26,878 nucleotides of DNA from a virus, in the IMG/VR virus record IMGVR_UViG_3300048856_000029, positions 88,846-115,723 of that record. One strand, 5' to 3'. Below, piece by piece: positions 4,695-21,834 of this stretch. The translations under genes were made by a program, and so were the position numbers. The notes under the pieces were generated by a model. The model had not been told where the DNA came from. It ran no database searches and saw nothing but the letters and a program-made list of their open reading frames with translations. The first letter of the stretch is position 1. Each line of letters starts with the position of its first letter.

Positions 4695-4902
4695 ACAGGA
4701 TTGTGGCACGCTCCGGCACGTAAGAGTCCTTGACTTCCCTGTCATCTCTCCTCGGCTTGTCCATGGCGCCCGCCAGCGGCTCCCTGGCACGCAATCGTGC
4801 CAGCCCTGCGCCATTTTCTATCCTGAAATCAAAGCGTTAGTGTCTAAACATCGAAAGCGAAACGACGCTTTCGACAGTCAACAACGCTCACAGGAGAGAC
4901 AC

Positions 4903-6196: not shown

Positions 6197-6279
6197 GCGG
6201 CGACAAGCGACTACCAGTTTCGCTAATTCGCTATTTCGCTATTATGCTATTGTCAGCAACGAGACGAAGAGGTTCTCAC

Positions 6280-6800: not shown

Positions 6801-6824
6801 AAAAGAGCGCGCTTTCGCGCGCTC
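6801..6824 (-). terminator. intrinsic terminator of the GG/CC-free operon
   Basis: Minus strand GAGCGCGC-GAAA-GCGCGCTC-TTTT (GNRA loop); stem built without GG/CC. Confidence 0.75.
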
Positions 6825-6843
6825 CTCTGTCTAAGTTGTATCG

Positions 6844-7020
6844 CTATTCTGCGTGTCGTTCGTCGCGCTTGTAGCTCACTAGAGACGCGATATCGACGCT
6901 ATCGAAATCGTCGTCTAGCAATTCGACGTCAACGCGCAATGCGTTGATGTTATTCATTAGCTGTTGCTCACGAAAGCGCTCGCGCTCGCGACGTTCTTTC
7001 TTGCTCAAGTGAATGCGCAT
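6844..7020 (-). CDS. 58-aa protein with basic N-half and acidic C-half; lacks Gly/Pro/Trp
   Basis: ATG at 7020 with TAAGAGA RBS; lies between the 189-aa gene and the terminator. Confidence 0.6.
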   Translation of the reverse strand: MRIHLSKKERRERERFREQQLMNNINALRVDVELLDDDFDSVDIASLVSYKRDERHAE

Positions 7021-7049
7021 GTTCAAATCTCTTATTCGACGTTGAGAGA

Positions 7050-7074
7050 GACTAGCGCGACGAGCGCGCTAGTC
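7050..7074. other. perfect 10-bp-stem hairpin between the two GG/CC-free genes
   Basis: GACTAGCGCG-ACGAG-CGCGCTAGTC. Confidence 0.75.
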
Positions 7075-7090
7075 ATTCAATTTTGACTTA

Positions 7091-7660
7091 TCACGCAAAG
7101 CGCGCAACGATCGCTTGAACAATCTCGTTATCGTTGATTGCGTAAGTATCGCGCGACAACTGAGAGACGACGTTGATAGCAGCGAGCGCGCGCATGTTCA
7201 TCGTTGCATGACGCTTTGCAGACGAATAAGCAGTCTTGCGACGATAATAGAGATGAACGCGCTCTTTCGCGACTTTCAAGTCTTTGTTGAGCGCAATCTC
7301 GAAATCAGAAAGACGAATGTTCTTTTCATCGTTCTTCTTGAAGTTCGCGAGCGTGCGAATGCACTCTTCGACACATGACTTAAGATCTTCGATCTTCTTT
7401 TGATCGATCACGAATGAGAGCACGTCAGCGACGTTTTCGAGCGCTTTCATGTCGAACTTGTCGTCTGCTTGTTTCTTGTCATGCGCAAAGTCTGCGACGA
7501 CTTCGCAGCGTTCAAGCAGATCAGCGACTTTCTGTTGAGAAACGACCAGAGTGCACTTCTTGATGAAGTTCAGCGAAGCGCTCGACTTGTCGTTCTTCAG
7601 TTCTTCATCGTAGCGAGCAGACAGCGATGCAGCATACTTGTTGAGCGTTACGTTCGTCAT
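7091..7660 (-). CDS. 189-aa protein without Gly/Pro/Trp; paralog of 4903-5589
   Basis: Long ORF with AAAGAGAG RBS; colinear motifs shared with 4903-5589 (YAA, SASL/SANL, NFK, NMRxLA). Confidence 0.85.
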   Translation of the reverse strand: MTNVTLNKYAASLSARYDEELKNDKSSASLNFIKKCTLVVSQQKVADLLERCEVVADFAHDKKQADDKFDMKALENVADVLSFVIDQKKIEDLKSCVEECIRTLANFKKNDEKNIRLSDFEIALNKDLKVAKERVHLYYRRKTAYSSAKRHATMNMRALAAINVVSQLSRDTYAINDNEIVQAIVARFA

Positions 7661-7721
7661 GTTAGTCTCTCTTTCTCTCTTTGTTGTGAAGCGTTGTTGC
7701 TTCGTCGTGTTGACAATGATG

Positions 7722-7749
7722 AATATACAGATTGATTTGATAGTTGCAA
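7722..7749 (-). promoter_or_regulatory. putative sigma70-like promoter of the GG/CC-free operon
   Basis: Minus strand TTGCAA-N16-TATATT about 60 bp upstream of ATG 7660; TCGCTAA array immediately upstream. Confidence 0.55.
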
Positions 7750-8148
7750 TAGCTATTTCGCTAAATCGCTAACTTTTTTATGGAGATCGGGATTCGCTTA
7801 TAGAACGTCACAGACGCGCATAGACGCTTGAGCAGTGTCTCACAGCGCAGAGTGCTCGGGATCGACTGTGTGACGCGCTGTGTGTCGAAGCGCGCGCAAT
7901 CGAACGTGCAAGCGACAGTGTGAAGCGAGATAGTTGCGATGAAAGCGAAGTCTTAGAAAAATCGTGGGTAGCTGAAGGGGATGCCTTCTGGCGCCGGAGC
8001 ACTTCCGGAATGGGACTACCTCTCCTAGCGCCCTATCAGGACGGACAGCTCTCTACACGCCGGTCGGTAAAGATCGGTCAAGCTCTCCTCTGCCCCCCCG
8101 CAGCCCGGTATCCTGGCGCCCTGACTACCTATCCTGCGCCTCAGCTAA

Positions 8149-9069: not shown

Positions 9070-9575
9070 GCGTTGTCGTCTATCACGACGGGATCATGGC
9101 AGCCGACACCCGAGCCTATTCGGGTGATCGGCATTTCGTGGGCAACAAGCTCAAGATCCACCGAATGCCGGACGGCTCGCTGCTGGGCATCGTCTCCAAC
9201 CAGGTCGGTATGCCCGAGGCGTTCAAGCAGTGGGTGGCAGAAGGCGCAGATCGCGAAGCGGTCATGCCGGATCAGCCCTCCTTCGAGGCGATTCATGTCA
9301 TGCCCGACGGCAAGATCTTCTATTACGACGATGGCTATACGCCGTCCGGGCCGATCGTCGCCCAGACGCTCACCATCGGCTCGGGCAAGAAGTATGCGCT
9401 CGGCGCCATCAAGATGGGTGCCGATGCGGTCAGGGCCGTCGAGATCGCCATCGACTGCGATGTCTGGTGTGGTGCGCCTGTCAGCGCCCTGCCCCTGAAC
9501 GAACCGCGGCTGGTCGAGGATCCGAAATCGCTATTTAGCGATATCGCTGATTCCGGGGAGGCGGCCGATGCTTGA
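9066..9575 (+). CDS. Ntn-hydrolase, HslV/proteasome-beta-like peptidase
   Basis: TTG start overlapping the upstream stop, GGAGG RBS; (M)SVVVYHDGIMAADT..KI..IGSGKKYALGAIKMGADAVRAVEIA..D. Confidence 0.75.
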   Translation: MSVVVYHDGIMAADTRAYSGDRHFVGNKLKIHRMPDGSLLGIVSNQVGMPEAFKQWVAEGADREAVMPDQPSFEAIHVMPDGKIFYYDDGYTPSGPIVAQTLTIGSGKKYALGAIKMGADAVRAVEIAIDCDVWCGAPVSALPLNEPRLVEDPKSLFSDIADSGEAADA

Positions 9576-9788: not shown

Positions 9789-10058
9789 CTATTTCCCTTC
9801 GCGGCTTTTCAGCCACATGTCGAAGGACTCCTCGAGCAGCTCCTTCATCGACATGCCGGCGCTCGACGCCGTCACCTTGTATTTCAGCTTGAAGTCCGGG
9901 AGCACCTTGAAGTTCAGATCGGTGAACAGATCCGACTTCTTGGTCTCCATGTTGTCTGCGACCAGGGTCGGCTTTTCCTCGGTCGCCAGAGCGCCGAGAT
10001 AGCTCATCTTCTGCGGCTTGGCCGGCACCTTGGCTTTCGTTCCCGTGGTCTGCTTCAT
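9789..10058 (-). CDS. ribbon-helix-helix partition adaptor (ParG-like, type Ib)
   Basis: Coupled to parA (ATGA overlap); flexible N-terminus then DLNFKV-PDFKLKYKVTASSAGMSMKELLEESFDMW, an RHH pattern. Confidence 0.75.
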   Translation of the reverse strand: MKQTTGTKAKVPAKPQKMSYLGALATEEKPTLVADNMETKKSDLFTDLNFKVLPDFKLKYKVTASSAGMSMKELLEESFDMWLKSREGK

Positions 10059-10699
10059 GCTGCGATCTCCTTCAATTCATTCAGTCGGTCGACGATCTCG
10101 GCAGCCAGGGTATCGGCGCGCTCATTGAGGGTCGAGTATTTGGTCTCGGAGACGGCCGCGCCGCTGTTTTGTGCCATCTGATACCCAGTCTTGGCCGCAA
10201 GATCCGTGTCGGCGACCAGGAAGCCCTGGTTCTTCAGGAACCCGGCTGCCTCGCGGGTCGCAAGATCGCTTTCCGTGGTCTTGTTGAGGACGAAGATCAG
10301 CTTGGTCAACGGCACGCCCTTGCTGACGAGCTCGTTGGCGAAGCGCACTTGCGGGCGCAGATCGTCGGCCGTCAGACCTGTCGGGATCACGACCAGGTCG
10401 GCGATGCGGGCTGCTTCCAGGGAGTTGATATCGGAGTCCGGCGCGCCATCGATGACCAGCAGGTCGAATGGCTGGCCTTTCAGCTTCTTGACCGAGTTCA
10501 TCGGCTCGGCTGCGATCTCCGGCTCCATGCCTTGTTGCATCCGCACGGCCACCCAGTCGACCGAGGTCAACTGTCGGGTGTTGAAATCGCAGATCTTCAC
10601 CGACCAGCCGGCGATCGCGAAAGTGCGTGCGAGCAGCCGGGCTAGTGTCGATTTGCCGACGCCACCCTTCTGGGATAGGCAGGCTATGACATATGACAT
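10055..10699 (-). CDS. parA: ParA family partition ATPase (short, type Ib)
   Basis: Deviant Walker A QKGGVGKST; IDGAP; ADLVVIP. Confidence 0.92.
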   Translation of the reverse strand: MSYVIACLSQKGGVGKSTLARLLARTFAIAGWSVKICDFNTRQLTSVDWVAVRMQQGMEPEIAAEPMNSVKKLKGQPFDLLVIDGAPDSDINSLEAARIADLVVIPTGLTADDLRPQVRFANELVSKGVPLTKLIFVLNKTTESDLATREAAGFLKNQGFLVADTDLAAKTGYQMAQNSGAAVSETKYSTLNERADTLAAEIVDRLNELKEIAA

Positions 10700-10739
10700 C
10701 GCTAAATCCTCGTTTTCGCCAATTCGCCTTTTCGCTAAA
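10697..10739. repeat. 8-bp-periodic TCGCTAA array over the parA start/promoter (parS-like)
   Basis: ATCGCTAA ATCCTCGT TTCGCCAA TTCGCCTT TTCGCTAA; a second array lies at 9763-9803 downstream of the operon. Confidence 0.65.
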
Positions 10740-10890
10740 CCTAGCTCTGCTTGGTTAACGAACTATGACTGATTTGGGAAGGGAGGAGGGTGACGCGGCC
10801 CATTTGCGTCAACAACGACAAAGAGAGACCCACACTTTCCAGGAGTGAGAGACGACTTGGTCTAGGGCCGCGCCGAGACCGATATAATTC

Positions 10891-11839: not shown

Positions 11840-11876
11840 ATACAACAGCAGCTGATTTAGGGAAAGGTCGATTTCG

Positions 11877-12053
11877 CTAATTCGCGATTTCTGCCGATGC
11901 TTCGCGGGCACTTTTCCGTCGCAGCAGGCGATTGAGGCGCTCCACCTCGTCGTTGAGCTCCTTGATCCGCTCCAGATAGTAGCTTTCCGAATAGGCCGAC
12001 AGACCACAGGAGTTGAAGAAATGGACGGGGTCGATCTTGCGTTCTTCGCTCAT
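11877..12053 (-). CDS. small coiled-coil hypothetical protein
   Basis: ATGA overlap with the helicase; GGAGG RBS. Confidence 0.6.
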   Translation of the reverse strand: MSEERKIDPVHFFNSCGLSAYSESYYLERIKELNDEVERLNRLLRRKSAREASAEIAN

Positions 12054-13663
12054 GCTGCCTCCTTCAAGGCCTTGATGCGCCGTTCGGCGAACAGCTTCCA
12101 CGGGAAATCGTCATTGACCGCAAGGATGCCTTCCTTGAAGCCGGGCGTGTTCTCGACGACGCGCCGGCGCGAGGTGGCGTGTTCGGCAAGCGTAAGATTG
12201 TTGGAGCAGGTATAGTCGGCGACGAAGGCGACGTTTGCCATGCCCTTCTTGCGCCGCAGACCACGGCCGATGCGCTGGCGCAGCGCTACTTCTGCCTTGC
12301 CACCGCCCGCGAGCTGGATCACCCCGAGGGCAGGGACGTCAACGCCGACGTCGACAATGGTCGAGCCGATCAGAACGTCGATCTCGCCGGCGCCGAGCTG
12401 CCGGAGCGCCTCGTCACGTTCCTCCTGGCTGTTCTCGCCACGCAGGAAGACCGCCTTCAGCCCGACCTTGGTCATCTTCTGGAGCAGGATCTCCCCATGC
12501 TCCATGCGCTGCACCAGGGTCAGCACCGGCAACTGGTAGAGCTTTGCCATCAGGGCATCGCGAATGATGTCCTTGTGCATGAGCTGGTTCTCGACATAGC
12601 CGAACTGGTAGGCGCGCTGCCAGGGCGAGGTGCGGAACAGCTTCGGATGCGGCTTCGAGGTGACGAACTTGAAGAACGGCTTGGCGAGAATGCCGCGGTT
12701 GATCAGCTCCTCTTCCGAAATGTTGATCAGCACCGAGCCGAATGCTGCCATCAGGCGCATATTGTCTTCAGCAGAGTCGCGCATGAAGGGCGTTGCCGTC
12801 AGAGCGACCCGGATCGTCGCGTTCTTGCAGTGCTTGAGGATCTGGTAATAGCTGTTGCCGCCCGCTTCATGGGCTTCCTCGCCGATCACAACGTCGATCA
12901 TCTCGAGGAATTTCAGATAGCGGTTCCGCTTTTTCGTCTTTTCGTTAAATCGCTCAAGGGCGATTTCGCGAACCTGCTCCTTGGACATGTTGCTGTCCTT
13001 CTTCTTGGAGCGATGGATCGACTTGACGACGGCCCGGATCTCTTCGTCGAGGTTAGGCTCCTCGAGCGCCTGGACGAGCGTCTGCACCATGCCGAGGTTG
13101 ATGCCCTTGACCATCTTCTCCTGACCGTCGCCGAGGACGCCGGTGTTGAAGTTGAGCGCGTCGACCTGGCGCTTCATCTGGTAGAGCAGCACACCGCGGG
13201 TGGTCAGGAAGAGGGTAGGGCGCCGGTAGCGGGCCATGACGAGCTTGGCGATCTTCGACTTGCCACCGCCCGTCGCCACGCGAATGATGCCGCGGCCGTG
13301 CTTCTCGACCTGGCGCAGCGCCTTCATCTGGTAGTCGTAGTCCGGATTATCATTGCCGAACTCGTCCACGATCGGGTTTTCGGGGCCAAGCGGGGCAACA
13401 TGCGGCTTGCGCAGGAGCTGAACCTTGTAGCCGCGGCGCGTCAGCTCCGAATGCACCATGTAGGCGAAGCCGGCCGGAAAGCTCGAGGTCTTGTATTCGT
13501 AGAATGAGGAGCGGCCGTCCCAGGTGCCCTGATTGAAGGCAAAGGACTGCTCGGCGCCGTCGACCATGTAGGAGAGCAGATCGGAAACGGTGTTCTCGAC
13601 TTCTTCGGTCGGGTCGATCAGCTTGGCGACGACAGCGTTATGGGCGAGCTTTACGGTTTTCAT
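12050..13663 (-). CDS. SF2 DExH helicase (UvsW/Res-III-like)
   Basis: ATGGGKS, EEAH, TAT, DVGVDVP, QRIGRGLR. Confidence 0.92.
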   Translation of the reverse strand: MKTVKLAHNAVVAKLIDPTEEVENTVSDLLSYMVDGAEQSFAFNQGTWDGRSSFYEYKTSSFPAGFAYMVHSELTRRGYKVQLLRKPHVAPLGPENPIVDEFGNDNPDYDYQMKALRQVEKHGRGIIRVATGGGKSKIAKLVMARYRRPTLFLTTRGVLLYQMKRQVDALNFNTGVLGDGQEKMVKGINLGMVQTLVQALEEPNLDEEIRAVVKSIHRSKKKDSNMSKEQVREIALERFNEKTKKRNRYLKFLEMIDVVIGEEAHEAGGNSYYQILKHCKNATIRVALTATPFMRDSAEDNMRLMAAFGSVLINISEEELINRGILAKPFFKFVTSKPHPKLFRTSPWQRAYQFGYVENQLMHKDIIRDALMAKLYQLPVLTLVQRMEHGEILLQKMTKVGLKAVFLRGENSQEERDEALRQLGAGEIDVLIGSTIVDVGVDVPALGVIQLAGGGKAEVALRQRIGRGLRRKKGMANVAFVADYTCSNNLTLAEHATSRRRVVENTPGFKEGILAVNDDFPWKLFAERRIKALKEAA

Positions 13664-13703
13664 GTTTTCTCGAATTGCCTATTGCGGTCTTTTCCATCTA
13701 TGA

Positions 13704-13721
13704 TAAGTAAATACTGACTGA
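13704..13721. promoter_or_regulatory. 18-bp operator in the divergent promoter region
   Basis: TAAGTAAATACTGACTGA; overlaps a minus-strand TATCAT -10. Confidence 0.75.
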
Positions 13722-13751
13722 TTGCTGCCACATAATCAAGGCAAGGACTGA

Positions 13752-14501
13752 ATGACATATCCTCAACCCCTGATGCTGGACCCGCGGGCGCTTTCGCCGA
13801 ATCCGTGGAACACCAACATCGTCACCCCGGAAAACGAGCGAAAGCTCGAGGAGTCCATCAAGCGACTTGGGTTCTTTCGTCCGGTCATAGTTCGCGAAAT
13901 CGCTAATTCGGGAATTAGCGATATCACATATCAGCTTCTGGGCGGCGAGCATAGAGCGCAGGCTGCAGTTCGCCTGAAGATTTCGAAGATCCCGGTCGTT
14001 AACCTTGGCCCGATCAGCGACCTGGAAGCCAAGGAGATCGGGATTGCCGACAATGCCCGATACGGCGTCGACGATCAGATCGCCTTTGCCGAGCTGGTCA
14101 AGGACATGGGCAATGCCGATCAACTCGAAACCTTCCTTCCTTATGCCGAGAGTGACTTCGCTGACCTCTTCGCATCTGCTGAAATAGATCTGGATGCTTT
14201 GGCGCTCGACGAGGATTTCGAGCGGAAAGAGGACAAAGCCGAGGACGACGAATCGGCTCAGCCGAAAGCGCCCAAGACCCACACGATCATCCGCTTCAAG
14301 GTCACGAACCGCGACGCCGAGGATCTCACCCGGCTGATCGAAGCGACCAAGCAGGGGCAGGGGTTCACCTTATCCGACGAGCTGACCAATGCGGGCGACG
14401 CCCTGGTCCATCTGCTGCTCAACAACAAGCCGGCCGCTGCCGGCGAAGACGATGATCTTCCCGAACTGGAAGACCTCGCCATCGACGGGGACGACGCATG
14501 A
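13752..14501 (+). CDS. ParB/Srx N-terminal domain protein 1
   Basis: LSPNPWNTN, LEESIKRLGFFRPVIVR, GGEHRAQAA, ADNARYG. Confidence 0.88.
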   Translation: MTYPQPLMLDPRALSPNPWNTNIVTPENERKLEESIKRLGFFRPVIVREIANSGISDITYQLLGGEHRAQAAVRLKISKIPVVNLGPISDLEAKEIGIADNARYGVDDQIAFAELVKDMGNADQLETFLPYAESDFADLFASAEIDLDALALDEDFERKEDKAEDDESAQPKAPKTHTIIRFKVTNRDAEDLTRLIEATKQGQGFTLSDELTNAGDALVHLLLNNKPAAAGEDDDLPELEDLAIDGDDA

Positions 14502-14677
14502 TCACCCCGAAGTTCGATGACTGCCGCTCCTGCGTCTTCTTCCTCAAAAATCGCCGCAACCCGATCTGCAAGAGCTGCGATGCGGGCGAGTTCTACGAGG
14601 AGAAGCACACCTGCCGGGAGAAGACCAACGACGAACTGATGAAGCTCTACGGGGAATATACCGATGACGACGAATAG
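14498..14677 (+). CDS. 59-aa Cys-rich protein (CxxC-N11-CxxC), not in the ORF track
   Basis: ATGA overlap; MITPKFDDCRSCVFFLKNRRNPICKSCDAGEFYEEK... Confidence 0.75.
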   Translation: MITPKFDDCRSCVFFLKNRRNPICKSCDAGEFYEEKHTCREKTNDELMKLYGEYTDDDE

Positions 14678-15335
14678 GCCGGTCCAACTGCTCGATATCG
14701 AGCAGATCAAGCCCTACGAGAACAACGCCAAGAAGCACTCGGCCGAACAGGTCGGCAGCCTGGTGAAGCTGATCGAACGCTTCGGCTGGACGCAACCGAT
14801 CGTCACCGACCGCGACTTCGTGATCATCGCCGGTCACGGCCGGCGCCTGGCAGCCCTTGAGATGGGGCTCAAGAAGGTGCCCGTCATCGTCCGCGAGGAT
14901 CTGACCAAGGACGAGGCCAACGCTCTCCGGCTCGCCGACAATCGCGTCTCCTCGACCGAATACGACCTGGCGCTCGAACAGGCGGAGCTGCAGGCGCTCT
15001 CCATGGTCGATCTCAACTTCGACCTCACCGATCTCGGCTATTCCGAGCATGAGCTGAACTTCTCGACCGCCGATCTTGGCGAGCTGGATGACTCCATCTT
15101 TGTCGACGACATCAACGGCGCGGTCGAAAAGCAGAAGAACGAGAACAAGGAAAAGGTCGAAGAGGTCGACGATGTCGCCGCGCCTGTCGTCGATGCGCTC
15201 GGCTTCAAACGTGTGACGATCGCCGAAAGCCGCGTGCTGCGCGACCTGATGGCCCGCATGGAAGTCGCGACCGGCAAGAAGGGCGCTCCGGCGCTGATCG
15301 ACTTCGTCTCCTCCAGACTGGAAAAGGCCGCATGA
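14664..15335 (+). CDS. ParB/Srx N-terminal domain protein 2
   Basis: IKPYENNAKKH, FGWTQPIV, IIAGHGRRLAA, LRLADNR. Confidence 0.9.
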   Translation: MTTNRPVQLLDIEQIKPYENNAKKHSAEQVGSLVKLIERFGWTQPIVTDRDFVIIAGHGRRLAALEMGLKKVPVIVREDLTKDEANALRLADNRVSSTEYDLALEQAELQALSMVDLNFDLTDLGYSEHELNFSTADLGELDDSIFVDDINGAVEKQKNENKEKVEEVDDVAAPVVDALGFKRVTIAESRVLRDLMARMEVATGKKGAPALIDFVSSRLEKAA

Positions 15336-15757
15336 TCGAGATCGAGGCACAGAACGTCATCGATCTGAAGTCGCGCAAGCCCTACCGGCTGGTGCGCGAG
15401 GAGCAGATCAAGGCTCGGCGCAAGGCCAAGCGCCAGGCAAAGAAGGAACTCGATGAAGGGCGCGCCGAATACCGCGAGGCGATTTTGTCGTCTCTGCGCC
15501 AGATCACGAAACTCGTCGAGGAGGGCAAGCTGCATGGCCTGATCCTGCTTGCGCAGGAGCCCAAGTCGAAACTCTTCCTGACCGACGTGGTCCTGGATGA
15601 ACGGTTTGTGCCGGCACAGGATCTGTTCGCCTTCGTCGGCTGCCTCGAGGCTCTGAAGCTGGAGCTGTCGGATGCCTCGACGATGGCGCCGGTGCTCGGT
15701 CTCGACGGCTCGGTCATCGATCCGGAAGTCAACTACATCGAGGATTACGAGGAATGA
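15332..15757 (+). CDS. hypothetical protein
   Basis: Translationally coupled at both ends. Confidence 0.75.
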   Translation: MIEIEAQNVIDLKSRKPYRLVREEQIKARRKAKRQAKKELDEGRAEYREAILSSLRQITKLVEEGKLHGLILLAQEPKSKLFLTDVVLDERFVPAQDLFAFVGCLEALKLELSDASTMAPVLGLDGSVIDPEVNYIEDYEE

Positions 15758-16398
15758 GCGTCTACACGATCAACAAGGCGTTTACGTCGTCCGTCGAGCG
15801 CACGCCGCGGGTGCTGGAGATCGCCGAGGGTTTTGGCCTGGGACTGACCGACAAGAGGTTCGTCGTCTATGACAACCTTCAGCTCGAGGTGAAGCAGGGC
15901 GATATCGTCTATATCCTCGGCCAGTCGGGCTCGGGCAAGTCGCTGCTGCTGCGCGACCTGGTCTCGCAGATGCGCGGGGAGGGGAGGGCGGTCGCCGACC
16001 TCAACGAACTGGTGCTGCCGGACGTGCCGGTGATTGACTGTCTCGGCACCACGACCACCGAGGCCACCAATCTGCTTGCCAAGGCCGGCATCTCCGACGC
16101 CTGGATCTATATCCGCAAGCCCTCCGAGCTTTCCGACGGCCAGCGCTATCGCCTGAAACTGGCGATGATGCTCGGCATGAACGCTGATGTCTGGGCGGCC
16201 GACGAGTTCGGAGCCGTGCTCGATCGCACCACTGCGAAGATCATCGCCTTCAATCTGCAGAAAGTCGCCCGAGAGAACGGCAAGACCCTGATCGTTGCGA
16301 CAACTCATTCCGACCTCGAGGAAGAACTGGGACCGACGCTGTCGATCCACAAGCGGTTCCGCGAAAAGGTCGACATCAAGGAAGGGCTGGCGGCATGA
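15754..16398 (+). CDS. stand-alone ABC-type ATPase
   Basis: GQSGSGKS, LSDGQ signature, ADEF Walker B, TTH H-loop; no permease nearby. Confidence 0.9.
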   Translation: MSVYTINKAFTSSVERTPRVLEIAEGFGLGLTDKRFVVYDNLQLEVKQGDIVYILGQSGSGKSLLLRDLVSQMRGEGRAVADLNELVLPDVPVIDCLGTTTTEATNLLAKAGISDAWIYIRKPSELSDGQRYRLKLAMMLGMNADVWAADEFGAVLDRTTAKIIAFNLQKVARENGKTLIVATTHSDLEEELGPTLSIHKRFREKVDIKEGLAA

Positions 16399-16694
16399 AT
16401 TTCGGTAAGGCACTCGAATTCGCCAAGAAGGGCAAGGTCATCCGTCGGGCGGAGTGGAATGCGAAGGCAAAGGTCTACCTGGAAGCCGGATCGCGCGACA
16501 CCTCCAAGCTTTATGGCCGCACCCGGATCGAGGCTGCACTCAGAGCCGAACTGTTCCAGCCCGGCGACAAGGGCACCGTCACCCGGCTGCCGAACCTCAA
16601 CCTGAAAACGCCGGGCGGCGAGACGCTGACCGGCTGGCAACCCTCACAGCTCGAAATGCTGGCAGAAGATTGGGAGATCATTTCCGATGAGTAA
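16395..16694 (+). CDS. DUF2829/Tad2-like protein
   Basis: MNFGKALEFAKKGKVIRRAEWN ... GWQPSQLEMLAEDWEII matches the family termini. Confidence 0.82.
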   Translation: MNFGKALEFAKKGKVIRRAEWNAKAKVYLEAGSRDTSKLYGRTRIEAALRAELFQPGDKGTVTRLPNLNLKTPGGETLTGWQPSQLEMLAEDWEIISDE

Positions 16695-16884
16695 GACCAC
16701 GACCTATCGCACGACCCGCGACATCGTCATTCCGGCCGGCACCGAAGTCGGCCCGGCGCCGCGGCGCACCGATTACATCTCCCGCCACAGCGAGATCCTG
16801 ATCGGCTTCGACAAGGACACGACCGGCAACCTGCGCTTCGACACCGAGGAGGCGCTTCAGCTCGGTCTGATCGAGGAAGTTTGA
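16687..16884 (+). CDS. hypothetical protein
   Basis: GGAG RBS; coupled to neighbours. Confidence 0.65.
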   Translation: MSKTTTYRTTRDIVIPAGTEVGPAPRRTDYISRHSEILIGFDKDTTGNLRFDTEEALQLGLIEEV

Positions 16885-16997
16885 TGCGGCTGAAATCGCT
16901 AATTCTTGCTTTCGCTATTTCGCTGCTGGTGAGCACTTGCAGCGCGACAGCACCTGCACTCGCAAAACTCGACGGAGCGCGCTGTGAGCGAAACTGA
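16884..16997 (+). CDS. possible 37-aa signal-peptide-like ORF
   Basis: TGATG overlap, GAGGA RBS; MRLKSLILAFAISLLVSTCSATAPALAKLDGARCERN. Confidence 0.4.
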   Translation: MRLKSLILAFAISLLVSTCSATAPALAKLDGARCERN

Positions 16998-17850
16998 GAC
17001 GATTGTGACGCGATCTGACAGCGCACGAGCACGTTTCTCGCTGGCCGACGACATGTTCATCGAACGGGGCACGATCGAAGACTGGAACCTGCTGCACGAT
17101 CTCCACTACAAGGCGGAGAAGCTGCCGCTTGGACCGCGCTTCTGGCGTCTGGATCTGCATGGCGAGACGATCGGCGTCCTGGTGACGGGCACGCCGAAGG
17201 GTATGCTGCGCGAGCGGCACCTGGCCTTTCCGAAGCTGAAGCCGACCGGCCAGGAGACCAAGCTCACCAACACCAACCGCTATCACTACATCAACGCCAA
17301 CTTCCGGGTGATCTCGAGGTTCGTGATCGACACGATGTATCGCGGCATCGGCGCCGGCTACCGGATGATGAACCTGGTCTCCCGCATGGAGGGCAACACC
17401 TTCATGGAGATCCAGTCGTCCATGTCGAAGTTCAACATCTTCGGCCAGAAGGCAGGCTTCAAGTTCGTCAAGCCGATGAACGCCAACAAATACGAGCAGG
17501 GGATGAAGTTCTTCCGCTCGCATTTCCAGGCCACGCCCCAGGACTTCGAGGCGATCGTCAACGAGATTGAGGGCTCGCCGGCACGCGAGAGACTGATCCA
17601 GGCCTGCCGGGAGTTCTACCAGCGCAACTCGGCGCTCGAGAATACAGGTGCTGCCCGTGAAAAGGCCGACGAGCGCGTCGCGGCCATGACCACCCGTGGC
17701 CTGGTCAAAGGCATTCAGCAGGTCTGCCTGGCCTCGCCCATGTATGGCGTCTGGAAGTGCCCGGACAAGAAGGGCAGCGTGCCGGAGCGAATGCCGTTGC
17801 TTGCTTTCGATGCGCAGGGCACGTCCGAACCTCTGAGGTGGAAGGCCTGA
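16984..17850 (+). CDS. GNAT-fold acyltransferase, Mom-like candidate DNA-modifying enzyme
   Basis: LHYK near the N-terminus; ISRFVIDTMYRGIGAG acyl-CoA-binding motif; SSMSKFN. Confidence 0.75.
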   Translation: MSETETIVTRSDSARARFSLADDMFIERGTIEDWNLLHDLHYKAEKLPLGPRFWRLDLHGETIGVLVTGTPKGMLRERHLAFPKLKPTGQETKLTNTNRYHYINANFRVISRFVIDTMYRGIGAGYRMMNLVSRMEGNTFMEIQSSMSKFNIFGQKAGFKFVKPMNANKYEQGMKFFRSHFQATPQDFEAIVNEIEGSPARERLIQACREFYQRNSALENTGAAREKADERVAAMTTRGLVKGIQQVCLASPMYGVWKCPDKKGSVPERMPLLAFDAQGTSEPLRWKA

Positions 17851-18095
17851 TGGCGAAGATCCGCAGAGGCAAGAAGCAGGCGCAGATCGCCCAGGTGATC
17901 CTGCAGGCGGCCGACAGCGGCGAGTATCTCACGGTCTCACAGATCTGGGATGCGCTTCCCTACAAGTGCGCCTACGGAACGCTCCGGAAGATGCTGAAGG
18001 TCTTCGAGGACCGGAAGATGATCGAGAAGGAACGAACCGGAATGAGTGTAACGGTGAAGCCTATGCTTCTCCTTTACCAATGGTATCGGACCTAG
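17850..18095 (+). CDS. winged-helix DNA-binding protein (81 aa)
   Basis: TGATG overlap; LTVSQIWDAL..AYGTLRKMLKVFEDRKMIEKER. Confidence 0.75.
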   Translation: MAKIRRGKKQAQIAQVILQAADSGEYLTVSQIWDALPYKCAYGTLRKMLKVFEDRKMIEKERTGMSVTVKPMLLLYQWYRT

Positions 18096-18183
18096 CAATC
18101 CGGAGCCGTCTTCAGTCAATTATTATCTATCTACTAGCTTCATAGTAATAAGTAATTATTGACTGACGATGGACCGGATTGTG
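18096..18183. repeat. ~85-bp imperfect palindromic element, copy B, upstream of terS
   Basis: CAATCCGG..TCAGTCAATTATTA ... TAATTATTGACTGA..CCGGATTG; contains operator 18149-18166, with another operator at 18198-18215. Confidence 0.8.
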
Positions 18184-18229
18184 ACGATGTGCGATGATAA
18201 GTAAATGTTGATTGATCATAGTTAGGACG

Positions 18230-18904
18230 ATGGAAGAACAGGACACCTCTCCGGCCGAAGAGAACCAGCCGGATAACGCGAAAGCCAAGCGGCTCACCGA
18301 GGCGGAATACGCCGAGGCGAAGGAGCTATACGAACTGGGCAAGATGCGCCTCGTTGACCTCAGCGAGAAGTATGGCGTCACCCGGCAGGCTTTGTCGCAG
18401 CGCTTCAAGAACGATGGTGTTTCCTACGGCTCGCGCGCCGATGAAATGCAGGCTGCCGTCTCCGAAGGCGTGAAGGCCGCTGTTGCAACACACACCGGGC
18501 AGCAGGTCGCCGCGGCGCTGGAGCGCTATGTCGAAAAGCGTCTCGAGTGGATCGAGGAGACCAGGCTTGCCGGCTACAAGTCGCTAAAGCAGGCCGATAT
18601 TCTGGCAAAGAAGGTAGTTGCCGAGGCGATCCAGAACAAGGCGCCGATGGCGTCGACCGACGACGACCTGAAGGCCGTCCAGCGTTTCCAGAAGATCATT
18701 GCCGAGAACACGCTCACCCGGCTCGAAGTCCTGCGCGCCCATGAGGTGATCGAGGAAGACGATCTGCCGAACATCACGTTCGCCGACCTCACCGACGAAG
18801 ACATTCTCTCGCATCACCGTGACAACGGGCTGCTCGAGGAAGGCGTCGATCCGGAAGAGGTGCTTGCCGAACTCGCCAAGGGCACGGAGGGCCTGGGCGA
18901 ATGA
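18230..18904 (+). CDS. terminase small subunit (probable)
   Basis: N-terminal HTH (LVDLSEKYGVTRQALSQRF); directly upstream of terL. Confidence 0.75.
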   Translation: MEEQDTSPAEENQPDNAKAKRLTEAEYAEAKELYELGKMRLVDLSEKYGVTRQALSQRFKNDGVSYGSRADEMQAAVSEGVKAAVATHTGQQVAAALERYVEKRLEWIEETRLAGYKSLKQADILAKKVVAEAIQNKAPMASTDDDLKAVQRFQKIIAENTLTRLEVLRAHEVIEEDDLPNITFADLTDEDILSHHRDNGLLEEGVDPEEVLAELAKGTEGLGE

Positions 18905-20178
18905 GTTCGGCCGATGTGCTCCTGAAGGCCCACCGCGGTCAGAAGATCGTCATCAAGGATAAGCGCCGCTTCAAGGTGATTGTCGCTGGTCGGCGTTGGG
19001 GCAAGACCCAGATCTCCAAGATCGCGCTGATCAAGGCGGCCGTCAGCCGCAAGAAGCAGCTCGTCTGGTATGTGGCGCCGACCTATCAGATGGCCCGGCA
19101 GATCCTTTGGGACGACCTGAAGGCCTGCGTCCCGAAGAAGCTCATCGCCTATAACGGCATCAACGAAACCCGGATGACCATCCGGCTGATCAATGGCAGC
19201 CGCATTGAGCTGAAGGGCGCCGACAATCCGGACTCGCTGCGCGGTGTCGGTATCAACTTCCTGGTTCTCGATGAGGCCCAGGACATGAAGCCCGATGTCT
19301 GGGAAACGGTTCTGCGCCCGACGCTCGCCTCGACGGGCGGCCAGGTCATCTTCATCGGCACGCCGAAGTCCTTCAACTGGCTCTATGACCTCTACCAGCT
19401 CGGCCAGCGCGGCGACACCTATGTCGACGAAAAGGGCAAGGTGGTCATCAACCAGTGGAAGTCCTGGCAGTTCCCGACAATCATGTCGCCGTTCATTCCG
19501 CGCTCGGAAATCGAGCACGCCCGGCGAGAAATGGATCCGAAGTCCTTCAAGCAGGAGTTCGAGGCCAGCTTCGAGACCATGTCCGGCCGCGTCTACTATG
19601 CCTTCGATCGCAAGGTGCATGTCGGTGACTACACGTTCAATCCGAAGCTGCCGATCATCATCGGCCAGGACTTCAACATCGATCCGATGTCGTCGGTCGT
19701 CATGCAGATCCAGGACAACGGCGACATCTGGGTGGTCGACGAGGCGATCCTTTACGGCTCCAACACCCAGGAGACGGCCGACGAGATCGCGCGCCGCTAC
19801 TATCGCCAGATGAACCAGATCACCTTCTATCCTGACCCTGCCGGCAACAACCGGTCGCACGCCCGCGGCGAGTCCGACCTCGATATCCTGCGCGACGCAG
19901 GCTTCAAGCGGATCGTCTTCCGGCGCAAGCACCCGCTGGTCTCCGACCGCGTCAACTCGGTCAACCGGCTCTTGATGTCGGCCGACGGTGCCGTGCGGCT
20001 GAAGTTCGACCGCAAGTGCAAGAAGACAATCGAGGCGATGGAGCAGACGATCTACAAGCCCGGCACTCGTGACGTAGATAAGTCTATGGGCGTCGAGCAC
20101 CCGGCTGACGCACTCGGCTACTTCGCGGAATACGAATATCCCGTTCGCAAGATCGAGATCATGGGTCTGTCTTTGTAG
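18901..20178 (+). CDS. terL: terminase large subunit
   Basis: AGRRWGKT, VAPT, LRG, LVLDEA, GTP, GQDFN, YPDPAG, HPADA. Confidence 0.95.
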   Translation: MSSADVLLKAHRGQKIVIKDKRRFKVIVAGRRWGKTQISKIALIKAAVSRKKQLVWYVAPTYQMARQILWDDLKACVPKKLIAYNGINETRMTIRLINGSRIELKGADNPDSLRGVGINFLVLDEAQDMKPDVWETVLRPTLASTGGQVIFIGTPKSFNWLYDLYQLGQRGDTYVDEKGKVVINQWKSWQFPTIMSPFIPRSEIEHARREMDPKSFKQEFEASFETMSGRVYYAFDRKVHVGDYTFNPKLPIIIGQDFNIDPMSSVVMQIQDNGDIWVVDEAILYGSNTQETADEIARRYYRQMNQITFYPDPAGNNRSHARGESDLDILRDAGFKRIVFRRKHPLVSDRVNSVNRLLMSADGAVRLKFDRKCKKTIEAMEQTIYKPGTRDVDKSMGVEHPADALGYFAEYEYPVRKIEIMGLSL

Positions 20179-20235: not shown

Positions 20236-21834
20236 ATGGATAACACGCAGCTTCGCAACTTCTTCGATCGCCGGCATCCGCTGTATGCCAGCACCGCTGC
20301 GCATTGGGCGTTTCTGGAAGCCACCTATCAGGGTGGTCGCGAGTGGTTCGAAAACAACATCTTCTCCTACCAGAAGGAAGGGAAGAAGGAGCTGAAGGCC
20401 CGCAAGGAGCGCGCCTATCGCTTCAACCACACCCGCGAAGTGGTCGACCTCGTCCAGAAGTATCTCTTCAAGGGCGTCATCACCCGCAACAAGGAAAACG
20501 CGCCCGAGGTGGTCAAGAAGTTCTGGGAGCGCTCCACGCTCCAGAACATGCGCATCGACCAGTTCATGCGCTCGGCGTCCTCGTCCTCGTCGGTCAAGGG
20601 CCGCTCCGCGCTGGTTGTCGACAACAACGTTCGTCCGGGCGCCGTCTCCATCGCCGAGGCGAAAGAATCCAATATGCGGATCTACGCCTATCTGGTCGAC
20701 AATTCTGACATTCTCGACTTTGCCTTTGACGAGGACGGCGATGGCGGGCTCCTGTGGGTCAAGCTGCGCGAATACTATCGCGACGACACCGATCCCCTGA
20801 CGAGCACCGGCGACGTGATTGAGCGCGTCCGGCTGTGGACCCGCACCGAATGGATGCTCTTCGAGGAGATCGAGGATCAGCTCGAGTCCGGCCAGACCAT
20901 CCGCGGCCCTCGCAGCCGCCTACAGGGCAAGCCGCAGAAGAAGGTCGTCATCAAGGAGCAGGGCGTACACGAGCTCGGCCGCGTGCCGGTGATCTTCCTC
21001 GACCATATCATCACCGACAATCCGTATCGCACGCCGAGCCTGATCGACGACATCGCCTATCTCGACCGTGCCGTCGCCAACTACCTGTCGAACCTGGACG
21101 CCATCATCCAGGATCAGACCTTCTCGCAGCTCACCATGCCGGCGCAGTCGCTGCTTCCGGGCGAGGAACCCTACAACAAGCTGGTGGAGGCCTCGACCAA
21201 GCGCGTGGTCGTTTACGATGGCGGGCAGGGCGCTACCGCAAAGCCCGAGTTCATCTCGCCCGATCCGAAGCAGGCGAATGTCATCATCACGGTGATCAAC
21301 AAGATCATCAACGAGATCTACCATACGATCGGCCTGGCCGGCGAACGCACCAAGGAAGACAATGCCGTCGGTATCGACAACTCTTCCGGCGTCGCCAAGG
21401 CCTACGATTTCGAGCGCGTCAACTCACTGCTGACCTCCAAGGGTCAGTCGCTCGAAAAGGCCGAGAACGAACTTGTGGAGCTGGTCTGTCTGTGGGCGAA
21501 AGAGACGCTGCCCGAGACGCGCCTGGTCAAGTATCCGGAAAGCTATGACGTCATGCGTCTGGCTGACGAGCTTGCCGTTGCCGAACAGCTCGCCAAGATC
21601 GATGCGCCCAAGGAAGTCCGCCGCGAGCAACTCAAGCTCATGGTCGACAAGCTGTTCCCGCAGCTCAAGAAGGACGTCATCGAGAAGATCCGCAAGGATA
21701 TCGACAAGTGGCTGGAAGGTGTCGACCTCCTGGCTCCCCCTTCAACATTTGGAAAGTCGGCCGTCACTCCCTCTCGGCAGGGTCAGGTGACGAAGTCCTC
21801 TCCCAACAAGCAGGCCTCCGCGGCCACGAAGTAA
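20236..21834 (+). CDS. portal protein
   Basis: 532 aa after terL; HELGRVPVI, DIAYLD..N..S, SGVAKAYDF resemble SPP1-type portals. Confidence 0.85.
   Translation: MDNTQLRNFFDRRHPLYASTAAHWAFLEATYQGGREWFENNIFSYQKEGKKELKARKERAYRFNHTREVVDLVQKYLFKGVITRNKENAPEVVKKFWERSTLQNMRIDQFMRSASSSSSVKGRSALVVDNNVRPGAVSIAEAKESNMRIYAYLVDNSDILDFAFDEDGDGGLLWVKLREYYRDDTDPLTSTGDVIERVRLWTRTEWMLFEEIEDQLESGQTIRGPRSRLQGKPQKKVVIKEQGVHELGRVPVIFLDHIITDNPYRTPSLIDDIAYLDRAVANYLSNLDAIIQDQTFSQLTMPAQSLLPGEEPYNKLVEASTKRVVVYDGGQGATAKPEFISPDPKQANVIITVINKIINEIYHTIGLAGERTKEDNAVGIDNSSGVAKAYDFERVNSLLTSKGQSLEKAENELVELVCLWAKETLPETRLVKYPESYDVMRLADELAVAEQLAKIDAPKEVRREQLKLMVDKLFPQLKKDVIEKIRKDIDKWLEGVDLLAPPSTFGKSAVTPSRQGQVTKSSPNKQASAATK

What the first reader, a model, noticed from the sequence alone, without database searches (positions are those of the whole stretch)
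13752..18095. ParB-ParB-Zn finger-ABC ATPase-GNAT cluster next to terminase: candidate writer of a GG/CC DNA modification
Seen: a tightly coupled operon with two ParB/Srx-domain proteins, a CxxC-CxxC miniprotein, a permease-less ABC ATPase, a GNAT with an RGIGAG motif and a wHTH, directly upstream of terS/terL. Partition is already covered by the separate ParA/RHH pair, so these ParB domains probably do something else. Established: phage Mu Mom is a GNAT-fold DNA base-modifying enzyme, and ParB-domain genes often accompany phage DNA-modification genes near terminases. Inference: this is a packaging-linked hypermodification system, and the GG/CC-free operon reveals its target. Together they would form a writer plus modification-free boot-sector system.
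Basis: partly seen in the sequence, partly recalled or inferred. Interest (0 to 1): 0.88.

Follow-up and report, generated by a model that had tools for sequence, protein, structure and literature searches.

The report
Terminase-linked ParB, ABC ATPase, acetyltransferase operon
This phage-plasmid carries a real, conserved but never-tested gene set beside its DNA-packaging genes that probably marks phage DNA chemically, but I found no support for the claim that it targets GG/CC.

Summary
Window 13752-18095 is one coupled + strand operon: ParB1, a CxxC-CxxC miniprotein, ParB2, a 141-aa protein, a permease-less ABC ATPase, a Tad2-like (DUF2829) protein, a 65-aa protein, a GNAT-fold protein (RGIGAG) and a small probable wHTH, directly upstream of terS-like/terL/portal.

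It is a known, predicted kind. The ATPase and GNAT are the two halves of the "ABC-type ATPase fused to acetyltransferase" protein (COG2401/MK0520). The Aravind group predicted this pair to acylate a DNA base (cited in PMC7824862). This scan has already reported the same module on other DNA (95 findings in at least 80 genomes).

The five-gene core (ParB1, ParB2, ABC, GNAT, wHTH) is present in every SSU5/nickie/RHEph10-type genome checked. ParB plus fused ABC-GNAT also sits beside the terminase in unrelated phages.

The GG/CC-free island (6824-7966) is real and conserved in some lineages. However, two complete relatives with an intact cluster have no island, and others have only a GGC/GCC-free or weak one. 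Four unrelated phages with the ABC-GNAT gene have no comparable GG-word island. The GG/CC target and the "boot sector" therefore remain an untested hypothesis (about 0.15).

The parts
13675..13724 (+). Promoter-like site and operator-like motif (ATAAGTAAATACTGACTGA) upstream of ParB1, in the 88-nt divergent gap from the helicase gene
   Evidence: TTGCCT-18-TATGAT; sequence. A similar AAGTAA..TGACT motif stands before terS. That this is a repressor operator is an inference, following scan note e1-5352280.
13752..14501 (+). ParB1: ParB/Srx N-terminal domain protein (249 aa), with an acidic linker and a conserved C-terminal region
   Evidence: PF02195 E 1.3e-8, phrog_723 E 6e-58. GG[EQ]HR and DNxR motifs are conserved in 13 of 15 genomes. 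Present in 37 of 37 relatives with upstream DNA.
13896..13925 (.). 14-nt-arm palindrome inside the ParB1 coding sequence; candidate protein-binding site
   Evidence: I3. The same position in RHEph10 keeps the palindrome through paired changes. Absent in V1VFA-S, nickie and SSU5.
14498..14677 (+). 59-aa CxxC...CxxC miniprotein (probable zinc ribbon); lineage-variable accessory
   Evidence: Sequence; no family hit. tblastn hits in about a third of relatives and in nickie; absent from SSU5, Cyrano and BUCTxx99.
14664..15335 (+). ParB2: ParB/Noc-type N-terminal domain protein (223 aa) with a helical middle and a two-helix C-terminal end
   Evidence: PF02195 E 5.5e-8; phrog_930 E 1e-81. AF2 pLDDT 83.8. 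Foldseek probability 1.0 to pNOB8 ParB-N, Noc and CTP-bound ParB. PDB profile hits E 1e-8. GHGRR..DN is invariant in 15 of 15 genomes.
15332..15757 (+). 141-aa protein of unknown family; accessory, restricted to the Rhizobium-type clade
   Evidence: No Pfam, PHROG or NCBIfam hit. tblastn hits only in the closer relatives.
15754..16398 (+). Soluble ABC-type ATPase (214 aa), the N-terminal half of the split ABC-GNAT protein
   Evidence: PF00005 E 1e-13; phrog_293 E 1e-44. 43% identical to residues 20-195 of the fused protein P0162 (E 3e-44). Motifs intact in 14 of 15 genomes; the signature, Walker B and H-loop positions could not be aligned in JGB6, whose record splits several genes of this module.
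16395..16694 (+). Tad2-like / DUF2829 protein (99 aa) in the variable slot between ABC and GNAT; candidate anti-Thoeris sponge, not part of the core
   Evidence: PF11195 E 9.8e-17, 61.7 bits against a cut-off of 25. The slot holds other or no genes in nickie, SSU5, pJN2-26, Cyrano and BUCTxx99.
16687..16884 (+). 65-aa protein of unknown family; accessory
   Evidence: No family hit.
16885..16983 (+). 99-nt gap before the GNAT gene carrying GAAATCGCTAATTC, identical to one arm of the ParB1 palindrome
   Evidence: Function unknown.
16984..17850 (+). GNAT-fold acyl-CoA transferase-like protein (288 aa), the C-terminal half of the split ABC-GNAT protein, with a helical insert at about residues 170-250
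   Evidence: phrog_886 E 2e-122. JGI name 'ABC-type ATPase with predicted acetyltransferase domain'. AF2 pLDDT 91.4. Foldseek and VIA hits to GNATs including TmcA, NAT10 and Mom. H41, Y42, R120, G123 and E142 are invariant. Distant homologues are fused ABC_tran + Acetyltransf proteins.
17850..18095 (+). Small basic protein (81 aa), probable winged helix; its start overlaps the GNAT stop codon; core member by position
   Evidence: Penicillinase_R E 0.001 (below cut-off), phrog_900 E 1e-4. A small gene stands at this position in all relatives inspected, named 'DNA binding domain containing protein' in Cyrano.
18096..18211 (+). AT-rich gap with two operator-like motifs before terS; separates the cluster from the packaging operon
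   Evidence: AAGTAATTATTGACTGA; AAGTAAATGTTGATTGA.
18212..20178 (+). Context: terS-like DNA-binding protein (18212-18904) and large terminase (18901-20178); portal follows at 20236-21834
   Evidence: phrog_867 E 1e-47. Relatives are annotated terminase large subunit and portal.
12050..13663 (-). Context: divergently transcribed UvsW-like SF2 helicase, conserved next to the cluster in all relatives
   Evidence: ResIII E 4e-16, Helicase_C E 6e-11, UvsW_N E 4e-4. Present in 37 of 37 loci.
6824..7966 (.). Context only: the GG/CC-free island that the finding invokes. 722 bp have no GG or CC, and depletion continues to about 7966. It holds a 189-aa and a 60-aa gene on the minus strand, with no Gly, Pro or Trp. 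Not shown to belong to the cluster.
   Evidence: It is the only such stretch in the 115.7-kb genome (longest gap 722 bp, against 80 bp outside the island region and a mean of 7.3 bp).

Best explanation
This is the SSU5-supergroup version of a widespread, uncharacterised, terminase-linked phage module. Its core is five genes: ParB1, ParB2, a soluble ABC ATPase, a GNAT-fold transferase and a small probable wHTH. They are transcribed as one operon just upstream of terS/terL.

Shown:
- The domain identities hold.
- The ABC ATPase and the GNAT are the two halves of a protein that is a single chain in other viruses and archaea (COG2401/MK0520 type).
- The catalytic motifs are under purifying selection.
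- ParB plus ABC-GNAT recurs beside the terminase in unrelated phages.

Inferred mechanism:
- ATP-driven dimerisation of the ABC domains clamps the enzyme on replicated phage DNA.
- The GNAT domain transfers an acyl group from an acyl-CoA to an exocyclic amine of a base shortly before or during packaging.
- The two ParB-fold proteins load or activate the enzyme on dsDNA, as the ParB partner of phage thymine dioxygenases does.

The Zn miniprotein, the 141-aa and 65-aa proteins and the Tad2-like gene are lineage-specific inserts. The Tad2-like gene is most likely an unrelated anti-Thoeris cargo in a variable slot. The target sequence and the chemistry are unknown, and a GG/CC target is not established.
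For: Domain calls.

Split-gene evidence: 214 homologues at E <= 0.001, many of 440-900 aa, with the query's GNAT part aligned behind an N-terminal ABC_tran domain. The window's ATPase is 43% identical to the N-half of one such fusion.

Conservation: the same order (helicase | ParB1-ParB2-ABC-[slot]-GNAT-small protein-terS-terL-portal) occurs in Rhizobium, Pseudomonas, Salmonella, Escherichia, Klebsiella, Stenotrophomonas and Xanthomonas phages. 53 of 53 IMG/VR loci carry it.

Independent contexts:
- Fused ABC-GNAT followed by ParB_N and the terminase (L066, L068).
- Fused ABC-GNAT directly after the terminase (L069).
- ParB, then ABC-GNAT, then terL in Leptospira LE3 and Streptococcus phiNIH1.1.
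- ABC-GNAT next to terL in Pseudoalteromonas SL25.

Archaeal-type fusions carry Gins51_C or TFIIB repeats, which points to DNA-associated action.

[quoted passage not shown] 2013). A phage ParB homologue activates a post-replicative DNA dioxygenase on dsDNA (PMC13229309).

No other DNA-modification gene is annotated in the relative RHEph10.
Against: There is no biochemical or sequencing evidence of any modification in these phages. The papers I could read on nickie-like phages report no restriction data, and no raw reads were available.

The GNAT fold does not tell the substrate. Protein, small-molecule, RNA (TmcA, NAT10) and DNA (Mom) enzymes are tied at Z 10-12.

The ABC domain resembles transporter-type NBDs by sequence, not the Rad50/SMC/UvrA DNA clamps.

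Fusions to TFIIB or GINS would also fit acetylation of DNA-bound proteins.
Confidence: 0.45

Rival explanations
1. The cluster writes a mark on GG/CC (or GG-containing words) in virion DNA. The GG/CC-free operon at 6824-7966 is a mark-free 'boot sector' that must be read from incoming modified DNA.
For: The island is real, unique in the genome and strand-symmetric, which argues for a dsDNA-level constraint. It is kept at only about 66% DNA identity in RHEph10, N1_10, Y2_11 and N1_15, and also in V1VFA-S (1279 bp) and nickie (1137 bp). 19 of 37 IMG/VR relatives have a GG/CC-free stretch of 400 bp or more within 10 kb upstream of ParB2. Weak GG-word depletion sits at the syntenic place in SSU5, Cyrano, JGB6 and G004. 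The cluster is the only candidate DNA modifier seen in the relative's annotation.
Against: Cluster and island co-occur only as shared traits of one phage lineage, so this is not independent evidence.

Complete genomes G002 and G003 have an intact cluster with all catalytic motifs but no word-free island for any 2- to 4-mer. BUCTxx99 and pJN2-26 have none at the syntenic place, and SSU5 shows only 2.4-fold depletion in an AT-rich stretch.

Close relatives (L075/G005, L089, L117, L124, L130) ban GGC/GCC, with or without CGG or GGA, rather than all GG/CC, with no matching change seen in cluster content.

Four unrelated phages with the ABC-GNAT gene have no comparable island; the best GG-word signal is a weak CCA/TGG gap in Nonlabens P12024S.

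No ORF shares the island's distribution across genomes.
Confidence: 0.15
2. The GNAT is a protein acetyltransferase. The ATPase-GNAT pair, brought to DNA by the ParB proteins, acetylates a DNA-bound phage or host protein around the time of packaging (a ParB, terminase, portal, nucleoid protein or RNA polymerase).
For: Most characterised GNATs among the best structural matches are protein or small-molecule N-acetyltransferases (Naa10/Ard1, RimI, HP0935). Distant fused homologues carry TFIIB repeats or a Gins51 C-terminal domain, which fits targeting of proteins on DNA. Phage GNATs that acetylate host RNA polymerase are known (Rac; PMC7824862, section 3.4.4).
Against: No candidate substrate is conserved with the module across unrelated phages, other than ParB and the terminase. 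The strict pairing with an ATPase is unusual for protein N-acetyltransferases; it recalls the nucleic-acid enzymes TmcA and NAT10.
Confidence: 0.22
3. The module handles DNA rather than marking it. ParB CTPase/nuclease-fold proteins and an ABC clamp help to process concatemers or to start or police packaging. The GNAT-like domain binds acyl-CoA only as a cofactor or sensor.
For: Constant position next to terS/terL in many unrelated phages. ParB-fold proteins can be nucleases or NTPases (PMC10853773, introduction).
Against: The acyl-CoA-binding motif R-G-x-G-x-G/S and the conserved H41, Y42 and E142 are invariant across lineages, as expected for an active enzyme. These phages already have a terS-like and a terL gene.
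Confidence: 0.1
4. The pair acetylates RNA (for example a phage or host tRNA), like the ATP-dependent tRNA cytidine acetyltransferase TmcA.
For: TmcA (2zpa) and NAT10 are among the Foldseek matches. These phages carry tRNA genes. ATP dependence is shared.
Against: The ATPase is of ABC type, not helicase type. No tRNA-binding domain was detected. The genomic partners are ParB and terminase, not translation genes.
Confidence: 0.05

Closest known systems
COG2401 / 'MK0520'-type proteins (ABC-type ATPase fused to a predicted acetyltransferase domain) and the ABC ATPase-GNAT DNA-modification system predicted by Iyer, Zhang, Burroughs and Aravind 2013 (as cited in PMC7824862)
   Same: Both halves are homologous to it: the ATPase is 43% identical to the N-half of a fusion, and the GNAT matches the C-half at E down to 1e-14. 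The motifs are the same and the phage context is the same.
   Different: Here the protein is split into two genes with up to two cargo genes between them. It is always accompanied by two ParB paralogues and a small probable wHTH. The family's function is a prediction only.
ParB-dependent phage thymine dioxygenases (5mYOX with a cognate ParB; PMC13229309)
   Same: A phage ParB-fold protein without a partition role is paired with a post-replicative enzyme that acts on dsDNA. This is the best experimental precedent for what the ParBs may do here.
   Different: The enzyme there is an Fe(II)/2-oxoglutarate dioxygenase, not an ATPase-GNAT. It has one ParB, not two. No link to the terminase is described.
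Phage Mu Mom (GNAT-fold DNA adenine N6-acyl transferase; PDB 8bv8)
   Same: GNAT fold (VIA Z 11.1, 151 residues aligned) and a phage late function that protects DNA.
   Different: There is no specific sequence relationship; Mom is tied with dozens of other GNATs. Mom needs no ATPase and no ParB.
TmcA / NAT10 (ATP-dependent RNA cytidine N4-acetyltransferases)
   Same: A GNAT is coupled to an ATPase that delivers a nucleic-acid base to the active site.
   Different: The ATPase is helicase-type there and ABC-type here. Those enzymes act on RNA and have a tRNA-binding domain, which was not detected here.
Tad2 (Thoeris anti-defence 2, PF11195)
   Same: The 99-aa gene at 16395-16694 passes the Pfam gathering score for this family.
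   Different: It is a cargo gene in a variable slot, not a conserved member of the module. Binding of the Thoeris signal was not tested.

Membership tests
COG2401/MK0520-type ABC ATPase-GNAT (split form) | ABC nucleotide-binding domain with Walker A, signature, Walker B and H-loop | tested here: met
   PF00005 E 1e-13. GQSGSGKS, [LM]SDGQ, ADE and TH are conserved in 14 of 15 genomes; JGB6 could be aligned only over Walker A.
COG2401/MK0520-type ABC ATPase-GNAT (split form) | GNAT fold with the acyl-CoA pyrophosphate-binding motif R/Q-x-x-G-x-G/A | tested here: met
   AF2 pLDDT 91.4. Foldseek probability 1.0 and VIA Z 11-12 to GNATs. R120 and G123 are invariant in 39 sequences.
COG2401/MK0520-type ABC ATPase-GNAT (split form) | Sequence homology of both halves to single-chain ABC-GNAT proteins | tested here: met
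   (fused hits with ABC_tran + Acetyltransf_1/_10). (43% identity, E 3e-44). JGI and GenBank names.
COG2401/MK0520-type ABC ATPase-GNAT (split form) | Acyl transfer to a DNA base (the predicted activity) | not testable with these tools
   Needs biochemistry or nucleoside mass spectrometry. No raw reads of virion DNA were available.
ABC transporter (the database label of both genes) | Partner permease or transmembrane domain in the operon | tested here: not met
   No membrane-protein family was hit in any of the ten operon proteins. The 'ABC transporter ATP-binding subunit' label on the GNAT protein (phrog_886) is a misnomer.
Partition ParB (ParABS) | ParB N-terminal (CTPase-type) domain with the arginine motif | tested here: met
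   PF02195 for both proteins. ParB2 matches Noc and CTP-bound ParB structures. GHGRR and GGEHR motifs.
Partition ParB (ParABS) | Adjacent cognate ParA in the same operon | tested here: not met
   ParA (10055-10699) lies 3 kb away on the minus strand with its own small RHH-like partner. In all relatives the two ParBs stand with ABC-GNAT and the terminase instead.
Partition ParB (ParABS) | Central centromere-binding HTH domain | tested here: inconclusive
   Only ParB_N is detected by Pfam. The ParB2 model has helices after residue 100, but no HTH family was matched.
Mom family (phage Mu DNA adenine acyl transferase) | Specific sequence or structure relationship to Mom beyond the general GNAT fold | tested here: inconclusive
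   No Mom family hit in Pfam or PHROGs. 8bv8 scores Z 11.1, tied with many other GNATs.
TmcA/NAT10 RNA acetyltransferases | Helicase-type ATPase domain and a tRNA-binding domain joined to the GNAT | tested here: not met
   The ATPase is of ABC type. Similarity to 2zpa is limited to the GNAT part.
Tad2 / DUF2829 (PF11195) | Match above the Pfam gathering score | tested here: met
   61.7 bits against a cut-off of 25, E 9.8e-17. Binding of the Thoeris signal is not testable here.

The most novel reading that the evidence does not exclude
The ParB-loaded ABC ATPase-GNAT enzyme puts an acyl mark on G or C within short GG-containing words in virion DNA. GGC/GCC is the common core, widened to every GG/CC in the Rhizobium- and nickie-type lineages. 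One early operon is kept free of those words so that it can be read from, or bound on, the incoming marked DNA. The specificity drifts between lineages, which would explain the different banned words and the apparent absences.
Probability: 0.15. Interest if true: 0.85.

Novelty: new member of a known kind. Interest (0 to 1): 0.42.

Why it matters
The module is a core, catalytically intact gene set of the SSU5/pHCM2-type phage-plasmids, which are common in Salmonella, E. coli, Klebsiella and soil bacteria. A related ParB plus ABC-GNAT pair sits beside the terminase in many unrelated phages. Databases nevertheless label it as a transporter or a partition system, and nobody has tested it.

If it acylates DNA bases, it would be a new class of ATP-dependent DNA hypermodification. 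That would bear on restriction evasion, on sequencing artefacts and on enzyme tools.

The word-free island gives a cheap, concrete prediction of where such a mark might fall. Cultured phages (RHEph10, nickie, SSU5) are available to test it. This report also narrows that idea: the island is not a general companion of the module.

Tried and rejected
- **Fused close relatives.** A search among longer proteins found none. Fusions appeared only among distant relatives.
- **Literature.** Iyer et al. 2013 and Krishnan et al. 2020 are not held. 'COG2401' gave no paper. Papers on nickie-like phages and on DLP3 gave nothing on this module; DLP3 DNA resists 15 enzymes, but that phage has a different gene set.
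- **Sequencing runs.** Only Logan contigs of a soil metagenome, the probable source, hold the stretch. No RNA holder is listed and there are no raw reads, so no modification or expression test was possible.
- **Complex prediction, ParB1 with ParB2.** No verdict (score 0.17, mark 0.32). This is neither for nor against binding.
- **A gene with the island's distribution.** I looked for ORFs present in own, RHEph10, V1VFA-S and nickie but absent from SSU5, Cyrano, pJN2-26 and BUCTxx99. I found only a tail-completion protein and family-less ORFs on the strand opposite most genes of this genome, which may be non-coding shadows (not checked); one is antisense to ParB1.
- **Accessory genes and the island.** The presence of Zn, the 141-aa protein or Tad2 does not track with the island.
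- **RNA-level or amino-acid-level explanations of the island.** Rejected, because GG and CC are absent in all frames, on both strands and in the promoter region.
- **Ordinary restriction-site or PAM avoidance.** Considered. A ban on every GG/CC is far broader than any single recognition site, and protecting 1 kb would not save the genome.
- **Promoter and terminator scan of the operon.** No more sites than in shuffled sequence.

Full report
**What is there.**

The window is the last 26.9 kb of a 115.7-kb phage genome from a soil metagenome. It is about 72% identical in DNA to Rhizobium phages RHEph10 and RHph_N1_15. It is more distantly related to Pseudomonas phage nickie and to the SSU5-type phage-plasmids.

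Between 13752 and 18095 nine + strand genes follow each other. Their junctions overlap by 1-14 nt, with one 99-nt gap:

| Gene | Coordinates | Main evidence |
|---|---|---|
| ParB1 | 13752-14501 | PF02195; phrog_723 E 6e-58 |
| CxxC...CxxC miniprotein | 14498-14677 | sequence |
| ParB2 | 14664-15335 | PF02195; phrog_930 E 1e-81 |
| 141-aa protein | 15332-15757 | no family |
| ABC ATPase | 15754-16398 | PF00005 E 1e-13 |
| Tad2-like / DUF2829 | 16395-16694 | PF11195 E 1e-16 |
| 65-aa protein | 16687-16884 | no family |
| GNAT-like protein | 16984-17850 | phrog_886 E 2e-122 |
| probable wHTH | 17850-18095 | weak hits only |

. A terS-like gene, terL and the portal gene follow. A UvsW-like helicase is transcribed divergently upstream.

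**The GNAT call.**

Pfam alone is weak (E 0.037). An AlphaFold model built on 39 homologues is confident (pLDDT 91.4). It matches dozens of GNATs: Foldseek probability 1.0 and VIA Z 11-12 over residues about 20-260. The helical stretch at about residues 170-250 falls inside the aligned range, so I read it as an insert in the fold.

R120 and G123 of the RGIGAG motif, and H41, Y42 and E142, are invariant. No class of GNAT stands out. Protein, small-molecule, RNA (TmcA, NAT10) and DNA (Mom, Z 11.1) enzymes are tied.

**ABC and GNAT are one split protein.**

A search of 1.8 billion representatives found 214 relatives of the GNAT protein. Many are 440-900 aa long, with the GNAT part behind an N-terminal ABC_tran domain. 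The window's ATPase is 43% identical (E 3e-44) to the N-half of one such fusion.

Sources already name the phage protein 'ABC-type ATPase with predicted acetyltransferase domain' or 'MK0520 protein'. Some fusions carry Gins51_C, TFIIB repeats or an intein, so the family reaches into archaea.

**Core and accessories.**

The order helicase | ParB1-ParB2-ABC-[slot]-GNAT-small protein-terS-terL-portal holds in phages of Rhizobium, Pseudomonas, Salmonella, Escherichia, Klebsiella, Stenotrophomonas and Xanthomonas.

A scan of IMG/VR gave 73 distinct loci. All 53 with enough downstream DNA carry ABC, GNAT and terL. All 37 with 10 kb upstream carry ParB1 and the helicase.

The slot between ABC and GNAT holds different genes, or none, in different lineages. 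The Zn miniprotein and the 141-aa and 65-aa genes are likewise lineage-specific. Catalytic motifs of GNAT and ParB2 are intact in all 15 whole genomes examined. Those of the ATPase are intact in 14; in JGB6, whose record splits several genes of this module, only Walker A could be aligned. The ParB1 arginines are replaced only in the two Xanthomonadaceae phages.

ParB2 models as a ParB/Noc CTPase-type N domain, followed by helices and a two-helix C-terminal end.

**Independent contexts.**

A ParB_N protein with a fused ABC-GNAT stands next to the terminase in unrelated phages:

- metagenomic contigs L066 and L068;
- a prophage with ABC-GNAT right after the terminase;
- Leptospira phage LE3 and Streptococcus prophage phiNIH1.1;
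- Pseudoalteromonas SL25, which has the ABC-GNAT gene beside terL, with no ParB annotated.

This recurring link to ParB and to packaging is the main argument for a DNA-directed function.

**What is known.**

Iyer et al. [quoted passage not shown] O'Toole et al. 2026 (PMC13229309) show that a phage ParB homologue activates a post-replicative thymine dioxygenase on dsDNA.

I found no experimental work on this module. This scan has noted the same module 95 times in at least 80 genomes. It is thus a new member of a known, predicted kind.

**The GG/CC claim.**

The island is real. Positions 6824-7546 have no GG or CC, and depletion runs to about 7966. It is the only such stretch in the genome: the longest gap is 722 bp, against 80 bp outside the island region and a mean of 7.3 bp. 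GG and CC are missing on both strands, in all frames and in the promoter region. Its two proteins lack Gly, Pro and Trp.

It is kept at about 66% DNA identity in four Rhizobium phages (up to 1150 bp), and also in V1VFA-S (1279 bp) and nickie (1137 bp). Nineteen of 37 IMG/VR relatives have a stretch of 400 bp or more within 10 kb upstream of ParB2.

**The co-occurrence test.**

- The cluster is universal in this phage group, so co-occurrence inside the group is not independent evidence.
- Complete genomes G002 and G003 (GNAT 52% and 68% identical, all motifs intact) show no word-free island for any 2- to 4-mer.
- BUCTxx99 and pJN2-26 show none at the syntenic place. SSU5 shows only 2.4-fold depletion in an AT-rich stretch.
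- Some close relatives ban only GGC/GCC, with or without CGG or GGA (L075/G005, L089, L117, L124, L130).
- Four unrelated phages with the ABC-GNAT gene have no comparable island. The only outlier among GG-containing words is a weak CCA/TGG gap in Nonlabens P12024S.
- No ORF has the island's distribution across genomes.

The link can be rescued only by assuming lineage-specific target words, some too long to detect. That is possible but untested. In favour: the relative's annotation shows no other DNA modifier, and weak GG-word depletion recurs at the syntenic place in SSU5, Cyrano, JGB6 and G004.

**Verdict.**

The module is confirmed. DNA base acylation before packaging is the most likely function (0.45), with protein acetylation as the main rival (0.22). 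The GG/CC-writer-plus-boot-sector model stands at about 0.15. It is worth a direct test, because cultured phages with and without a strict island exist.

Noticed in passing
window 13896-13925; 16892-16905; 7756-7772; also 3840-3866, 6218-6250, 9525-9545, 10696-10740, 11872-11890: A short motif family (AAATCGCTAA / TTTCGCTAA) is scattered over this part of the genome. It forms a 14-nt-arm palindrome inside the ParB1 coding sequence. RHEph10 keeps that palindrome at the same place through paired changes on both arms. One arm recurs exactly in the gap before the GNAT gene. Related copies stand in the island's promoter region and around parA. It may be the binding site of a partition or regulatory protein.
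   Followed up: partly
window 13700-13724 and 18147-18217: Operator-like motifs (AAGTAA-N-TGACT type) stand before ParB1 and, twice, before terS. The cluster and the packaging genes therefore look like two separately repressed operons. This fits the genome-wide operator noted earlier in this scan.
   Followed up: partly
window 6824-7966 and relatives (G005 90146-91400; L117; L124; L130): The banned word of the island differs between relatives. It is all GG/CC in this phage, V1VFA-S and nickie. It is only GGC/GCC, with or without CGG/CCG, GGA/TCC or TGG/CCA, in others. GGC/GCC is the common denominator.
   Followed up: partly
window 16395-16694: A Tad2-like (anti-Thoeris) gene sits between the two halves of a split enzyme gene. 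The same slot holds other small genes, or none, in nickie, SSU5, pJN2-26, Cyrano and BUCTxx99, so it behaves as a cargo insertion point.
   Followed up: partly
window 4840-5589 (+) and 7091-7660 (-): The 189-aa island protein is a distant paralogue (22% identity, E 8e-6) of a normally composed 249-aa protein encoded 1.5 kb away. Neither has a family hit.
   Followed up: partly
proteins P0156, P0188, P0194 (distant fused homologues): Fused ABC-GNAT proteins occur with a C-terminal TFIIB repeat, with an N-terminal Gins51 C-terminal domain, and with an intein carrying a LAGLIDADG endonuclease inside the ABC domain. This suggests archaeal members tied to replication or transcription.
   Followed up: no
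BUCTxx99 (L026 2899-3567) and JGB6 (L027 2965-3635): In the two Xanthomonadaceae phages the conserved ParB1 motifs read AGEHT and DNxH instead of GGEHR and DNxR. ParB1 may have lost nucleotide binding there, while ParB2 keeps GHGRR.
   Followed up: no
RHEph10 (L182, L183): The relative encodes a T5-like deoxynucleoside 5'-monophosphatase, a 'DNA transfer protein', RIIA/RIIB, its own sigma factor and CobS/CobT. T5-like stepwise DNA entry would matter for any 'first-read region' idea.
   Followed up: no
Nonlabens phage P12024S (L184) 30796-32005: A 1210-bp stretch without CCA/TGG (log10 expectation -7.6) lies inside a large gene of this unrelated phage, which also has a fused ABC-GNAT. It may be chance or composition.
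   Followed up: no
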